This document shows, one piece after another, positions 1 to 4,381 of a stretch of DNA of 64,000 nucleotides. The position numbers and the translations under genes are program-made. The notes beneath the pieces were generated by a model, which was not told the origin of the DNA, made no database searches, and worked only from the letters and a program-made list of their open reading frames with translations. Source of the DNA: Trypanosoma brucei (Eukaryota); assembly GCA_000002445.1 (NCBI GenBank), contig CM000207.1, positions 1,632,001 to 1,696,000 on the forward strand, given 5' to 3'. The stretch's first letter is position 1; each line of letters opens with the position of its first letter.

Positions 1-32
1 ATTATACACCTGACGTCAAGTGAAAAAAACTC

Positions 33-117
33 GGCGCGTCAGAAACAATATTAGCGTCACGGGTTCTGTTCAGATGTTGCTGTTAATTTGTTATATTAGG
101 TATTCATCACACGCACC
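33..117 (-). ncRNA. Box C/D snoRNA candidate (85 nt)
   Basis: Minus-strand RNA reads 5'-GGUGCGU-GUGAUGA-...AACAGCAACAU-CUGA-...GCUAAUAUUGUUU-CUGA-CGCGCC-3'. It has a canonical C box (GUGAUGA), an internal D' (CUGA), a 3' D box (CUGA) and a 6-bp terminal stem (GGUGCG/CGCGCC). It lies in the same orientation as the transcription unit. Confidence 0.6.
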
Positions 118-135
118 TACTCGCCGAACTGCTAA

Positions 136-241
136 CCCCACACGTCAGCTCGGAGCGAAAGATAGAGTTCACAGTTGCATCGACATAGTGTGTTTCCGTT
201 CCGCCTACGCGGTATCGGAAGCTCTTTCATCAGTGGCGGGG
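136..241 (-). ncRNA. Box C/D snoRNA candidate (~105 nt)
   Basis: Minus-strand RNA reads 5'-CCCCGCCA-CUGAUGA-...-CUGA-CGUGUGGGG-3'. It has a C-like box (CUGAUGA, non-canonical first base), a D box CUGA about 85 nt downstream and a terminal stem (CCCCGC/GUGGGG). Confidence 0.45.
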
Positions 242-710
242 AACGACGGATGGGGGATAAACACTTAACAGAGGGGAAAATGTGCATGGAATAGGTAATA
301 CAATAAGAGAAGGGGGAAGTAAACAGGGAATCACGGAAGTAAGGTTCAGTGCAGGTCTGTGTTATGGTGTCCTCACAGGTTCTCGGTGCAATTTGAACAT
401 ATTGTACATCGTCACCCACTACATTCCCTCTCGACTACCCCGCCACTCACAACATTATACTGCCGCCCACATTAGCCATTCCAAACTCACTGCGGTAATG
501 TATCCTCGTGTGTGCTTGCGTGTATATGTGTATATATGTGTATGTGTATGGAGTCGCGCCCAAGTGCCCGAGGTTGAGTACCTGAAGGACACGATAGCCA
601 TCAGACCCGAAAGGTGATTTGTGTTGTATAGATCCCTCATGAATATGACGTCGGAACATGTTTGGACGCTCAACTAGTTTCCATCATCGGCCACACACAT
701 ACACAAACAT

Positions 711-760
711 ACAAGCACACACACATACACACACTCACATATATATATATATATATACAT
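711..760. repeat. Compound (CA)n(TA)n microsatellite inside repeat unit (also 2449..2500)
   Basis: Contains acacacacatacacacactcac followed by (at)n. Copy B has one extra CA and a T-to-C change, so copy number is unstable. Confidence 0.8.
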
Positions 761-1770
761 ACACGACAAACCTCCGCACACCCAAACACTTACTCAGAAG
801 TCAAACAGACAAAATTAACTGATGTCAGCATCAAATAAATTCAGCTGAAACACGGATTTGACAGACTCATCATTGACACAAAACAAGGTAAGAGCAACAC
901 CACCAAACAGTTCAGAGCAGGAATAAGAAGGAGGGCGGCATGTACATATGTGTGTGGGGTAATGTTGGTGTAATGGGGAAAAGGTGAGAAAGTTACCGTA
1001 CGCCTCGGACGCAGGACGCACGCGGCTGGAATGTTGTGCGGCGCCCCAGAAACTATCGTAACACTCGTGCTCAATCCATGTTCGGGTGTGTGTCATAAGA
1101 CCGTCGTAAGTGGTTTATCGTCATGGGCAAAGTACAAGGTGTATCCGCAGTGACCAAAGAGACAATGCAGAATCTGGCAAAGAGAAAGGGCGAAAGCCAA
1201 GCAATAAGGGTGGTTTCAAATGTAAAACAAGGAAAAAGGGAGGGGAGGGGGGTGACAGTAACCACACACATGGTATGATAACGTGCCACGACGAAACCAA
1301 ACACCATCAGCCGGGGAAAGAAGAATATTCTTTAAATGGGTTATTGTCATTCAAATACACTCAGAGACTCCAGTCCATTGATGTCATCAAGTAGCGCGTT
1401 TACGACAGGTTAGGTGTACCGCAAAGCAACTCTCGGAGCGCACCAAGATGGCCTACGGCATGCAATCACAAAACGGCCGCTCCATGGCTAAAGCCCCTTT
1501 TTCATTTTTGTTGTCCATAAAAACACTGAAGGGAGAAAACAGAGGAAGGAGAAGGTAACAATATCAAACAAGAGAAGAGTGTGCACTAACCAATAACCTC
1601 CGTTATAATTCTCGGACCACGTGAGTGTGCAAACAAGGACACAGAAATGTTAGCCCAAGACACAACTCCAATGTGGGCCTTCCCCTACGGTTACTGCCCC
1701 AACACATAATTGTAATTATAATAATAACCATAATCATAATTATACACCTGACGTCAAGTGAAAAAAACTC

Positions 1771-1873: not shown

Positions 1874-1979
1874 CCCCACACGTCAGCTCGGAGCGAAAGA
1901 TAGAGTTCACAGTTGCATCGACATAGTGTGTTTCCGTTCCGCCTACGCGGTATCGGAAGCTCTTTCATCAGTGGCGGGG
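1874..1979 (-). ncRNA. Box C/D snoRNA candidate (copy in repeat unit B)
   Basis: Identical to 136..241 at an offset of +1738. Confidence 0.45.
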
Positions 1980-3985
1980 AACGACGGATGGGGGATAAAC
2001 ACTTAACAGAGGGGAAAATGTGCATGAAATAGGTAATACAATAAGAGAAGGGGGAAGTAAACAGGGAATCACGGAAGTAAGGTTCAGTGCAGGTCTGTGT
2101 TATGGTGTCCTCACAGGTTCTCGGTGCAATTTGAACATATTGTACATCGTCACCCACTACATTCCCTCTCGACTACCCCGCCACTCACAACATTATACTG
2201 CCGCCCACATTAGCCATTCCAAACTCACTGCGGTAATGTATCCTCGTGTGTGCTTGCGTGTATATGTGTATATATGTGTATGTGTATGGAGTCGCGCCCA
2301 AGTGCCCGAGGTTGAGTACCTGAAGGACACGATAGCCATCAGACCCGAAAGGTGATTTGTGTTGTATAGATCCCTCATGAATATGACGTCGGAACATGTT
2401 TGGACGCTCAACTAGTTTCCATCATCGGCCACACACATACACAAACATACAAGCACACACACACACACACACACTCACATATATATATATATATATACAT
2501 ACACGACAAACCTCCGCACACCCAAACACTTACTCAGAAGTCAAACAGACAAAATTAACTGATGTCAGCATCAAATAAATTCAGCTGAAACACGGATTTG
2601 ACAGACTCATCATTGACACAAAACAAGGTAAGAGCAACACCACCAAACAGTTCAGAGCAGGAATAAGAAGGAGGGCGGCATGTACATATGTGTGTGGGGT
2701 AATGTTGGTGTAATGGGGAAAAGGTGAGAAAGTTACCGTACGCCTCGGACGCAGGACGCACGCGGCTGGAATGTTGTGCGGCGCCCCAGAAACTATCGTA
2801 ACACTCGTGCTCAATCCATGTTCGGGTGTGTGTCATAAGACCGTCGTAAGTGGTTTATCGTCATGGGCAAAGTACAAGGTGTATCCGCAGTGACCAAAGA
2901 GACAATGCAGAATCTGGCAAAGAGAAAGGGCGAAAGCCAAGCAATAAGGGTGGTTTCAAATGTAAAACAAGGAAAAAGGGAGGGGGGGTGACAGCAACCA
3001 CACACATGGTATGATAACGTGCCACGACGAAACCAAACACCATCAGCCGGGGAAAGAAGAATATTCTTTAAATGGGTTATTGTCATTCAAATACACTCAG
3101 AGACTCCAGTCCATTGATGTCATCAAGTAGCGCGTTTACGACAGGTTAGGTGTACCGCAAAGCAACTCTCGGAGCGCACCAAGATGGCCTACGGCATGCA
3201 ATCACAAAACGGCCGCTCCATGGCTAAAGCCCCTTTTTCATTTTTGTTGTCCATAAAAACACTGAAGGGAGAAAACAGAGGAAGGAGAAGGTAACAATAT
3301 CAAACAAGAGAAGAGTGTGCACTAACCAATAACCTCCGTTATAATTCTCGGACCACGTGAGTGTGCAAACAAGGACACAGAAATGTTAGCCCAAGACACA
3401 ACTCCAATGTGTCGCATTTTTTTTCGTAATATAGTTTTTGAAAGTTTATTCAAATTTTTTGGAAGAAGGCTGAGTTGTTGCAGGTTCTTTACCTATGATA
3501 GGTCATATTGCTGATTATATTTTTTGTTCAATTGTTTTTTGTGTATAGAATGATTTCTCCTTTTTTATTTTTTTTCACCAAGTGGCTTGATAATTTTGGT
3601 GGAACCAACTGTTTTTTTTTTTTTCGCATGATATATTGTTAATAAGTTGAAACTCAAAAGTAAATGAGTAGGGTAACCATTATTTTGTGATAACTGCACG
3701 TAGCTTCGCTATAGTTGAAGCATCGATGTGCCCTTTTTCATTACTTTTTTTTTTACGTTTCTTGCATTGTTTAGCAATTGAGTATCGATTTTGTGTCCGC
3801 TTCCGATATTACTTTGGCAGGGTCAGTGATGTGGTTTAACAAAAAGGAAAAAATCAGCTGAATGGTGTTGTTTACTTGTTTGATGCCATTACCACTTGTT
3901 TTTTATTTTCGCTGTTGCATCATATCGCAGCTGTTCTCGCTGCCGTTTGATTATCACTCTCTTGATGTAGTTGGTAGTAACGTTT

Positions 3986-4381
3986 TCACATCCTGTAATC
4001 TCTTCTGTTTTCGTTTGATGCGTTGTTGTTTGTGTCGTAACTGTTTGAATAGTATGCGTCTGTCCCATATTCCCTGTTTTGGTTGCTGGAAAAGTCATAA
4101 GTTGGGTATTGCGATGTTTGCTGATTGTTTGATGGGTTATTATTTGCCGCTTCCTCCTTTTTGTGTTCGTTGGACGTGTTTCCATTGTCATTAGATTCTG
4201 TTCTGCCTTTAGCGCTTTGGGCCACCCCCGCAGCTTGCCGACGGGCGACAGACCTCTTATGAATCAAACAACCGACTATCCACAGAGCGGTCAGACCGAT
4301 ATAAACGGCGATTGTGATGAGGTATTTATACCACTCCCCCCCTTCCTTCTTCTCCTCTGGTTGTTGTTGTTGTTGTTCCAT
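3986..4381 (-). CDS. Hypothetical small membrane protein (131 aa): acidic/Q-rich N-terminus, one TM helix, N/S/Q/Y-rich tail
   Basis: ATG at 4379-4381 (minus). One clear hydrophobic helix (YLITIAVYIGLTALWIVGCLI) followed by basic residues HKRSVARRQ. Same orientation as the unit, but low-complexity composition makes coding uncertain. Confidence 0.3.
   Translation of the reverse strand: MEQQQQQPEEKKEGGEWYKYLITIAVYIGLTALWIVGCLIHKRSVARRQAAGVAQSAKGRTESNDNGNTSNEHKKEEAANNNPSNNQQTSQYPTYDFSSNQNREYGTDAYYSNSYDTNNNASNENRRDYRM

What the first reader, a model, noticed from the sequence alone, without database searches (positions are those of the whole stretch)
136..241. Second box C/D snoRNA-like element immediately upstream of the first
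The RNA is 5'-CCCCGCCA-CUGAUGA-...-CUGA-CGUGUGGGG-3'. It has a terminal stem (CCCCGC/GUGGGG with one G-U pair), a C-like box with an atypical first base and a D box about 85 nt downstream. It lies head to tail with the first candidate, 18 nt apart, as expected for clustered snoRNAs cut from one precursor.
Basis: seen in the sequence. Interest (0 to 1): 0.55.

Follow-up and report, generated by a model that had tools for sequence, protein, structure and literature searches.

The report
Known T. brucei snoRNA TB9Cs2C5
The flagged element is real, but it is the already published Trypanosoma brucei box C/D small nucleolar RNA TB9Cs2C5, which guides one ribose methylation on large-subunit rRNA and helps process the fragmented trypanosome rRNA, so it is not new.

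Summary
The motif is present as described, on the minus strand of window 136-241: CCCCGC stem, CUGAUGA, 78 nt, CUGA, GUGGGG stem. Four published primers for T. brucei snoRNA TB9Cs2C5 (Chikne et al. 2019, NAR, PMC6411936, Table S1) match the window exactly. They define a 96-nt RNA at window 237..142 (minus strand). An identical second copy lies at 1975..1880 in a ~1738-bp tandem repeat that also holds the Rfam-confirmed H/ACA snoRNA TB9Cs2H1. This is the chromosome-9 TB9Cs2 snoRNA cluster.

The 14 nt before the D box (UCUUUCGCUCCGAG) share an 11-nt core, at the same distance from the D box, with the snR60/Z15 Rfam consensus, human U80 and an Entamoeba snoRNA. All of these target the LSU guanosine equivalent to yeast 25S G908. 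That site is Gm1024 of T. brucei LSU-alpha, whose methylation falls when TB9Cs2C5 is silenced.

The literature also reports high abundance, psoralen cross-links to LSU-alpha, srRNA1 and the 3' ETS, and pre-LSU processing defects on knock-down.

Interest is low. T. brucei rRNA and orthologous trypanosomatid loci could not be examined with these tools.

The parts
142..237 (-). TB9Cs2C5 box C/D snoRNA, 96 nt as numbered in the literature (GCCACUGAUGA...GAGCUGACGU)
   Evidence: 'Sense TB9Cs2C5 (1-20 nt)' GCCACTGATGAAAGAGCTTC matches window 237..218 (minus strand). The 'Antisense T7' and 'Biotin-antisense (76-96 nt)' oligos, ACGTCAGCTCGGAGCGAAAG, match 142-161 (plus strand). 237-142+1 = 96.
227..233 (-). 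C box CUGAUGA (first base C instead of the usual purine)
   Evidence: Read from the sequence. UGAUGA aligns to the C boxes of the Rfam SNORD74 and SNORD60 models in sub-threshold alignments.
145..148 (-). D box CUGA
   Evidence: Read from the sequence. It aligns to the D box of Rfam RF00309 snR60/Z15.
149..162 (-). Antisense (guide) element UCUUUCGCUCCGAG upstream of the D box. The C at window 153 is the 5th nt from the D box and should pair with the methylated G (LSU-alpha Gm1024, also numbered 1028).
   Evidence: The 11-nt core UCUUUCGCUCC sits 3 nt from the D box, as in the RF00309 consensus GUCUUUCGCUCCUAUCUGA. The same core is in the human U80-R primer GATAGGAGCGAAAGACT and in E. histolytica Me-Eh-LSU-G1028 ...ATCTTTCGCTCCTATCTGA. 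PMC3542256 Table 4 equates TB9Cs2C5 with snR60 (G908) and U80 (G1612). Position arithmetic from T. brucei LSU-alpha primers is.
195..198 (-). Degenerate D' box CGGA
   Evidence: It aligns to the D' CUGA of the RF00309 model. The paper states that the D' box of TB9Cs2C5 is degenerate and that the nearby region pairs with the 3' ETS.
179..185 (-). C'-like box UGUCGAU
   Evidence: It aligns to the C' consensus UgAaGAU of RF00309. This rests on a weak, sub-threshold alignment only.
194..220 (-). 5' domain that can fold on itself (UUCCGAUACCGC GUAG GCGGAACGGAA). It contains the degenerate D'. Published work reports that this domain contacts the 3' ETS and LSU-alpha.
   Evidence: The hairpin appears in the MFE and centroid folds of the whole RNA. 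It has -12.8 kcal/mol when folded alone. Its role is inferred from the paper.
236..241 (-). 5' arm of the terminal/precursor stem, CCCCGC
   Evidence: Positions 241-238 lie outside the published RNA.
136..141 (-). 3' arm of the terminal/precursor stem, GUGGGG
   Evidence: The arm lies just outside the published 3' end (142).
1880..1975 (-). Second, identical copy of TB9Cs2C5 in the next unit of the ~1738-bp tandem repeat
   Evidence: There are no differences between the two copies in any C/D snoRNA.
32..118 (-).
   Evidence: Motif scan. Weak SNORD96 and snoR38 Rfam hits. Its order after C5 follows the serial numbering of Table S2. The name is an inference.
1610..1679 (-). H/ACA snoRNA TB9Cs2H1 of the same cluster. 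It identifies the locus.
   Evidence: Rfam RF01554, 86.8 bits against a gathering score of 45. A second copy at 3346-3415 scores 70.5 bits.

Best explanation
Window 237..142 (minus strand) encodes TB9Cs2C5, an abundant box C/D snoRNA of the Trypanosoma brucei chromosome-9 cluster TB9Cs2. The cluster is present here as at least two tandem ~1.74-kb units.

Biogenesis (established knowledge for trypanosomatid snoRNA clusters, not tested here): the cluster is transcribed as a polycistronic precursor in the same direction as the neighbouring protein-coding genes. Individual snoRNAs are then trimmed out. The flanking CCCC/GGGG stem probably brings the C and D boxes together for snoRNP assembly (inference).

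Methylation (inferred here from comparison, confirmed functionally in the literature): the C box (CUGAUGA) and D box (CUGA) form the kink-turn that recruits the C/D core proteins, including the methyltransferase NOP1/fibrillarin. The 14 nt upstream of the D box pair with LSU-alpha around ...CGGAGCGAAAGA.... This places the G opposite the 5th nucleotide from the D box, so that G is 2'-O-methylated. The site is Gm1024 (Gm1028 in later numbering), equivalent to yeast 25S Gm908 (snR60) and human 28S Gm1612 (U80).

Processing (published experiments): the RNA also contacts srRNA1 and the 3' ETS. The 3' ETS contact lies near its degenerate D' box. Silencing causes accumulation of the 5.9, 5.1 and 3.9-kb pre-LSU species and loss of srRNA1 and srRNA4. 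It therefore has a dual role as a methylation guide and a processing chaperone.
For: Identity:
- Four TB9Cs2C5 oligonucleotides from PMC6411936 Table S1 match the window 20/20, at positions that give exactly the published 96-nt length.
- Rfam finds TB9Cs2H1 twice in the same repeat.
- Primers for TB9Cs2C3 also map within the repeat unit.

Anatomy:
- The C box, D box and 6-bp stem are confirmed.

Guide:
- The best Rfam sub-threshold hit on the element is snR60/Z15, with an identical 11-nt guide core in register with the D box.
- The same core is in human U80 and in the Entamoeba G1028 snoRNA.
- PMC3542256 Table 4 lists TB9Cs2C5 as the T. brucei counterpart of snR60/U80.

Target position:
- T. 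brucei primers put LSU-alpha 980-999 at ...GACGTGCAA and 1070-1089 at UUUCCCUCAGGAUAGCUGGU.
- Using the spacing seen in the eukaryotic LSU fragment L003, A1020 and G1024 fall on GGU[A]UCG[G]AGCG.
- That G is the one opposite the 5th guide nucleotide. This matches the published Am1020 and Gm1024 sites.

Function and expression from the literature:
- RPKM is at the 89th-97th percentile.
- Gm1024 is reduced on silencing while Am1020 is not. Psoralen 'RNA walk' and chimera data show contacts to LSU-alpha, srRNA1/ITS3 and the 3' ETS. Pre-LSU precursors accumulate, and sr1 and sr4 are reduced.
- RiboMeth-seq tables assign LSUa_1028 G to TB9Cs2C5.
Against: - No Rfam family reaches its gathering score on the element. 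The snR60/Z15 hit is 14.5 bits against 41, with E = 5.3 even in a 131-nt search.
- The fold is not more stable than shuffles (z = -1.06). This is normal for C/D snoRNAs.
- The first base of the C box is C, not a purine, and the D' box is degenerate.
- T. brucei rRNA was not available, so pairing to the real target was not checked directly. L003 was retrieved with a pattern derived from the guide, so its complementarity is by construction.
- The paper says the region directly upstream of the D box pairs with srRNA1, where the predicted Gm126 was not detected. The text I could read does not say which guide directs Gm1024. Assigning Gm1024 to the D guide is my inference.
- The published silencing-construct primers bracket window 23-502. 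That interval also contains two neighbouring snoRNAs, so the processing phenotypes may not be specific to TB9Cs2C5.
Confidence: 0.95

Rival explanations
1. It is a chance co-occurrence of UGAUGA and CUGA with short flanking complementarity in non-coding DNA, and no RNA gene is present.
For: The motif definition I used occurs about once per 64 kb in shuffled sequence. No Rfam family passes its threshold on it. The fold z-score is unremarkable.
Against: Published primers for a named, northern-blotted and RNA-seq-quantified snoRNA match it exactly. It lies in a cluster with Rfam-confirmed TB9Cs2H1. Its guide core is shared with snR60, U80 and the Entamoeba snoRNA.
Confidence: 0.01
2. The RNA is real but works essentially as a pre-rRNA processing or chaperone snoRNA, in the manner of U3, U14 or the trypanosome-specific TB11Cs2C1/C2. 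Pairing with srRNA1, ITS3 and the 3' ETS would be its important activity, and the Gm1024 methylation would be incidental or guided redundantly.
For: It is unusually abundant and co-sediments with ~90S early complexes. It cross-links to three pre-LSU regions, and its silencing blocks release of sr1 and sr4. Its D' box is degenerate, and the 28-nt 5' domain is longer than a normal guide.
Against: The D guide is the conserved snR60/U80-type methylation guide. Gm1024 drops specifically on silencing. The two roles do not exclude each other. The silencing fragment covers neighbouring snoRNAs, which weakens the processing evidence more than the methylation evidence.
Confidence: 0.25
3. The copy at 136-241 is a silent duplicate, and only other copies of the tandem array produce the RNA.
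For: There are at least two identical copies in the window. Sequence alone cannot show which copy is transcribed.
Against: The two units are almost identical, flanks included: 9 differing positions in 1675, none in a C/D snoRNA. The array lies in one transcription direction with the upstream genes. Nothing distinguishes an inactive copy.
Confidence: 0.04

Closest known systems
TB9Cs2C5 (T. brucei C/D snoRNA). It was listed among T. brucei snoRNAs by 2012 (as LSU5 Gm1192 in the table of PMC3542256) and was characterised functionally by Chikne et al. 2019, PMC6411936.
   Same: It is identical. All four published oligonucleotides match 20/20, and the implied length of 96 nt fits. The cluster context is the same: TB9Cs2H1 and TB9Cs2C3 primers map nearby.
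   Different: Nothing detectable differs. Identity of the internal 56 nt between the primers is therefore inferred.
snR60 / Z15 / SNORD80 (U80) family, Rfam RF00309
   Same: It has the same D-box guide core, UCUUUCGCUCC, 3 nt from the D box. It has the same conserved target, the LSU G equivalent to yeast G908 and human G1612. The box order C-D'-C'-D is the same.
   Different: It scores only 14.5 bits against a gathering score of 41, and only model positions 33-90 align. The 5' half (the D' guide, which targets A817 in yeast; from my own knowledge) is not recognisably conserved. That half is replaced by a long, self-pairing domain reported to contact the trypanosome 3' ETS. The D' box is CGGA rather than CUGA. 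The published data add a processing role.
E. histolytica Me-Eh-LSU-G1028 snoRNA (PMC3542256)
   Same: The guide AUCUUUCGCUCC followed by 3 nt and CUGA is identical over 12 nt. The authors list it as the counterpart of TB9Cs2C5.
   Different: It is much shorter (61 nt) and has a canonical AUGAUGA C box. The rest of the sequence is unrelated.

Membership tests
Box C/D snoRNA (2'-O-methylation guide class) | C box (RUGAUGA) near the 5' end and D box (CUGA) near the 3' end | tested here: met
   CUGAUGA is at 233..227 and CUGA at 148..145. The first C-box base is C rather than a purine. The UGAUGA core needed for the kink-turn is intact.
Box C/D snoRNA (2'-O-methylation guide class) | Short terminal helix that brings the C and D boxes together | tested here: met
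   CCCCGC/GUGGGG forms 6 pairs in the MFE and centroid folds. Only about 2 of these pairs lie inside the published 96-nt ends.
Box C/D snoRNA (2'-O-methylation guide class) | Antisense element of at least 10 nt next to D or D', with the modified rRNA nucleotide opposite the 5th position | tested here: inconclusive
   The guide UCUUUCGCUCCGAG matches the conserved snR60/U80 guide. Position arithmetic places G1024 opposite position 5. T. brucei rRNA itself was not available, and L003 was retrieved with the guide-derived pattern.
Box C/D snoRNA (2'-O-methylation guide class) | Expressed as a stable small RNA, and the target methylation depends on it | not testable with these tools
   Literature only. 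RPKM is 87305, 76099 and 43341 in three libraries. Northern blots exist, and Gm1024 is reduced on snoRNAi. The RiboMeth-seq table assigns LSUa_1028 to it.
Box C/D snoRNA (2'-O-methylation guide class) | Association with NOP1/fibrillarin, NOP56, NOP58 and Snu13 | not testable with these tools
   Not examined here. The paper discusses that the degenerate D' may not bind NOP56.
TB9Cs2C5 (specific gene) | Sequence identity to the published RNA, and location in the TB9Cs2 cluster | tested here: met
   Primers map at 237..218 and 142-161, and the silencing primers at 23-42 and 483-502. TB9Cs2H1 is in the same repeat.
snR60/Z15/SNORD80 (Rfam RF00309) | Score at or above the family gathering threshold | tested here: not met
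   14.5 bits against 41, E = 5.3. There was no hit at all in the 6-kb and whole-window searches.
snR60/Z15/SNORD80 (Rfam RF00309) | D-box guide for the LSU G equivalent to yeast G908 / human G1612 | tested here: met
   The 11-nt guide core is identical and in register with the D box. The published equivalence table agrees.
snR60/Z15/SNORD80 (Rfam RF00309) | D' guide for the second conserved site (yeast A817) | tested here: inconclusive
   Model positions 1-32 did not align, and the 5' domain is a different, self-pairing sequence. No rRNA was available to test pairing.
Orthology across trypanosomatids | Conserved boxes and guide at syntenic loci in T. cruzi and Leishmania | not testable with these tools
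   No trypanosomatid genomes are in the searchable collections. The Leishmania snoRNA papers were not held or had no supplements.

The most novel reading that the evidence does not exclude
The published silencing fragments for TB9Cs2C5 (window 23-502) and TB9Cs2C3 (263-790) each span two or three snoRNAs of the cluster. The pre-rRNA processing phenotypes attributed to TB9Cs2C5 could therefore be partly or wholly due to co-silenced neighbours (the TB9Cs2C4-like and TB9Cs2C6-like RNAs). TB9Cs2C5 itself might then be just an ordinary snR60/U80-type methylation guide whose long 5' domain is a structural hairpin. This would be a re-attribution of function, not a new kind of element.
Probability: 0.15. 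Interest if true: 0.25.

Novelty: already known. Interest (0 to 1): 0.08.

Why it matters
It matters little as a discovery. The element is a catalogued and experimentally characterised snoRNA. The value of this check is that it fixes the strand, the exact ends, the copy number in the window and the working parts.

One point of modest interest: the D-box guide is the ancient snR60/U80 guide, conserved from yeast and human to Entamoeba and trypanosomes. The 5' half has diverged into a trypanosome-specific domain linked in the literature to processing of the fragmented LSU rRNA.

Tried and rejected
- Rfam at gathering thresholds on the whole window found only TB9Cs2H1 (x2) and nothing on the element. 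Rfam at E <= 10 on 6 kb also found nothing on the element. Only a 131-nt search gave weak C/D hits. Of those, only the snR60/Z15 alignment was informative. The SNORD74, SNORD60 and SNORD26 hits merely align the boxes.
- Thermodynamic stability is not significant (z = -1.06). It is of no use as evidence either way.
- RNAduplex of the whole snoRNA against 600 nt of L003 gave a meaningless long duplex, no better than shuffles. I discarded it.
Five are chance matches in non-rRNA, apparently protein-coding DNA. One (L003) is a eukaryotic LSU fragment, not a kinetoplastid one. It served only for spacing arithmetic.
- Liang et al. 2005 (PMC1370750) and Eliaz et al. 2015 (PMC4829279) are not held. Supplements of PMC3273796, PMC9283944 and PMC13487219 gave nothing.
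- Comparing the two repeat copies as a conservation test has no power. There are 9 differing positions in 1675, all in spacers.
- I considered and rejected an H/ACA identity (no hairpin-hinge-hairpin, no AGA/ACA box), a coding region (no ORF of at least 120 aa lies below position 3986) and a microRNA (the mir-297 hits are TG/TA microsatellites in the spacers).

Full report
**1. Observation**

The reverse complement of window 136-241 reads 5'-CCCCGCCA-CUGAUGA-(78 nt)-CUGA-CGUGUGGGG-3'. So the described RNA exists, on the minus strand.
- The C-like box is at 233..227 and the D box at 148..145. Their starts are 85 nt apart.
- CCCCGC (241..236) and GUGGGG (141..136) form six pairs, one of them G-U. 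These are the outermost helix in the MFE and centroid folds.
- A second C/D-like element (GUGAUGA...CUGA...CUGA, about 118..32) follows on the same strand after 17 nt.
- A simple scan asked for NUGAUGA, CUGA 40-130 nt downstream of the C-box start, and a stem of at least 5 bp. It found six instances in the 64-kb window, all on the minus strand within the first 3.2 kb. Shuffled sequence gave 1.09 per window.
- One such motif alone would therefore not be convincing. The clustering is.

**2. Context**

- The first ~3.45 kb of the window is a tandem repeat with a unit of about 1738 bp. The two units differ at only 9 positions over the first 1675, none of them in a C/D snoRNA.
- The element recurs identically at 1874-1979.
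- Rfam at curated thresholds finds the trypanosomatid H/ACA snoRNA TB9Cs2H1 in each unit: 1610-1679 at 86.8 bits and 3346-3415 at 70.5 bits, both on the minus strand.
- All ORFs of at least 120 aa between 3986 and 11549 are also on the minus strand. The array therefore lies in one transcription direction with the upstream genes.
- That layout is the known arrangement for trypanosomatid snoRNA clusters processed from polycistronic precursors (established knowledge, not tested here).

**3. Identity**

The cluster name led to Chikne et al. 2019 (NAR 47:2609, PMC6411936). Its Supplementary Table S1 lists oligonucleotides that map as follows:
- 'Sense TB9Cs2C5 (1-20 nt)' GCCACTGATGAAAGAGCTTC matches window 237..218 (minus strand).
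- 'Antisense T7 TB9Cs2C5' and 'Biotin-antisense TB9Cs2C5 (76-96 nt)', ...ACGTCAGCTCGGAGCGAAAG, match window 142-161 (plus strand).
- All matches are exact, and 237-142+1 = 96, the published length.
- The silencing-construct primers for TB9Cs2C5 (23-42 and 483-502) and for TB9Cs2C3 (263-282 and 771-790) also map in the unit.

The element is therefore TB9Cs2C5.

**4. Working parts**

Restricting Rfam to 131 nt around the element gives only sub-threshold hits. The best one on the 3' half is snR60/Z15/Z230/Z193/J17 (RF00309; 14.5 bits, gathering score 41, E = 5.3). The score is not significant, but the alignment is informative:
- The consensus GUCUUUCGCUCCUAU-CUGA aligns to AUCUUUCGCUCCGAG-CUGA. 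That is an identical 11-nt guide core at the same distance from the D box.
- The model's D' CUGA aligns to CGGA (198..195).
- The model's C' UgAaGAU aligns to UGUCGAU (185..179).

The same guide core is found elsewhere:
- The human U80 reverse primer is GATAGGAGCGAAAGACT (PMC10743478).
- The E. histolytica snoRNA Me-Eh-LSU-G1028 ends ...ATCTTTCGCTCCTATCTGATT (PMC3542256).
- That paper's Table 4 equates Eh-G1028, yeast snR60 (25S G908), human U80 (28S G1612) and T. brucei TB9Cs2C5 (LSU5 Gm1192 in the numbering that paper uses).

The 14 nt at 162..149 are therefore the conserved methylation guide. The C at window 153 is the fifth nucleotide from the D box and should face the methylated G.

**5. 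Target position**

T. brucei rRNA is not in any searchable collection, so I used published primer coordinates.
- LSU-alpha 980-999 is GTAGCGATGCTGACGTGCAA.
- LSU-alpha 1070-1089 is the complement of ACCAGCTATCCTGAGGGAAA, that is UUUCCCUCAGGAUAGCUGGU.
- The single metagenome scan with a guide-derived pattern returned one eukaryotic LSU fragment, L003 (Rfam LSU_rRNA_eukarya, 80 bits). It reads ...GACGTGCAA-ATCGATAGTTAAACTTCGGTATCGGAGCGAAAGACTATCGAACCATC....
- Numbering from GTGCAA = 999 puts A at 1020 and the second G of UCGG at 1024. These are the two sites the paper reports: Am1020, guided by another snoRNA, and Gm1024, guided by TB9Cs2C5.
- From my own memory of human and yeast 28S/25S rRNA, the distance from that G to UUUCCCUCAGG is 46 nt. 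That again fits the start of the downstream primer at 1070.
- Caveats: L003's complementarity to the guide is by construction, and equal spacing in T. brucei is assumed.

**6. Function from the literature**

- TB9Cs2C5 is among the five most abundant snoRNAs in one library and at the 89th-92nd percentile in two others.
- It co-sediments with ~90S complexes.
- After psoralen cross-linking it contacts LSU-alpha, srRNA1/ITS3 and the 3' ETS.
- Silencing lowers Gm1024 but not Am1020. It causes accumulation of the 5.9, 5.1 and 3.9-kb pre-LSU species and reduces srRNA1 and srRNA4.
- The predicted Gm126 on srRNA1 was not detected.
- The authors describe the D' box as degenerate and suggest that the nearby domain pairs with the 3' ETS rather than guiding methylation.
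- A later RiboMeth-seq table assigns LSUa_1028 G to TB9Cs2C5 (PMC9283944).
- In my folds the 5' domain (220..194) forms its own hairpin of -12.8 kcal/mol, which includes the degenerate D'. This is compatible with a non-canonical role.

**7. Mechanism, with status of each step**

- Shown here: the boxes, the stem, the guide shared with snR60/U80, the cluster and repeat context, and the identity with TB9Cs2C5.
- Shown in the literature: expression, dependence of Gm1024 on the RNA, cross-links and processing defects.
- Inferred: that the D guide, rather than the 5' domain, directs Gm1024.
- Inferred: that the flanking CCCC/GGGG stem assists snoRNP assembly and precursor trimming.
- Inferred: that both copies are expressed.

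**8. Limits**

- No Rfam family covers the RNA at threshold.
- No trypanosomatid orthologues or T. brucei rRNA could be examined.
- The published silencing fragment for TB9Cs2C5 also covers the TB9Cs2C4-like RNA (about 415..343) and the downstream C/D snoRNA (118..32). The TB9Cs2C4-like RNA has the D guide ACACAGACCUGCA, which by my recollection fits the conserved 18S CAGGUCUGUG site listed for TB9Cs2C4. The specificity of the processing phenotype therefore deserves a caveat.

**9. Verdict**

The element is already known, and interest is low.

Noticed in passing
window 23-502 and 263-790 (minus strand): The 'silencing construct' primers of PMC6411936 for TB9Cs2C5 bracket 23-502. That interval also contains the TB9Cs2C4-like snoRNA (~343-415) and the downstream C/D snoRNA (32-118). 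Those for TB9Cs2C3 bracket 263-790, which holds C3 plus the C4-like RNA. The published RNAi may therefore hit several snoRNAs at once.
   Followed up: partly
window 343-362 (plus strand): The 'Antisense T7 TB9Cs2C3' northern primer (AGGTTCAGTGCAGGTCTGTG) maps to the 3' end of the C4-like snoRNA, about 240 nt beyond the 3' end of the RNA that starts at the 'Sense TB9Cs2C3' primer (675-694). The C3 probe would then span two snoRNAs, or the table has a mix-up.
   Followed up: partly
window 1676 / 3412: Homology between the two repeat units ends inside the 5' end of the H/ACA snoRNA TB9Cs2H1. The copy at 3346-3415 differs in its first few nucleotides and scores lower in Rfam (70.5 against 86.8 bits). 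This marks the upstream boundary of the array on the minus strand.
   Followed up: partly
window 793-878, 600-694, 343-415, 1307-1390 (all minus strand): There are further C/D snoRNAs in the unit.
- 878..793: AUGAUGA...CUGA...CUGA. The fifth guide nucleotides are U and G, which fits TB9Cs2C2 (targets A742/743 and C760).
- 694..~600: the 3' guide CUUUCGGGU-CUGA, as in the Entamoeba G926 snoRNA, indicates TB9Cs2C3.
- 415..343: TB9Cs2C4-like.
- 1390..1307: the fifth guide nucleotides are A and C, which fits TB9Cs2C7 (targets U and G).

All names are inferred from target bases only.
   Followed up: partly
window 498-552, 688-758 and their repeats at 2236-2290, 2426-2496: (TG/CA)n and (TA)n microsatellites in the spacers between snoRNAs give spurious sub-threshold mir-297 and mir-3149 Rfam hits. 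The only length differences between the two repeat units are a 2-bp indel in one of these microsatellites (~715) and a 4-bp indel in a G-rich spacer at 1243-1246.
   Followed up: no
window 1040-1300 (minus strand): This stretch of the repeat unit, between the 1307-1390 C/D snoRNA and TB9Cs2C2, has no gene assigned by me. Table S2 of PMC6411936 lists TB9Cs2C1 and TB9Cs2H2 for this cluster, and they may lie here.
   Followed up: no
L003 (metagenome contig Ga0209145_1138502): This is a eukaryotic LSU rRNA fragment with CGGAGCGAAAGA instead of the GGGGCGAAAGA I recall for yeast and human. It appears to lack the segment downstream of CAUCUAGUA. It comes from an unidentified, probably divergent, eukaryote.
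   Followed up: no
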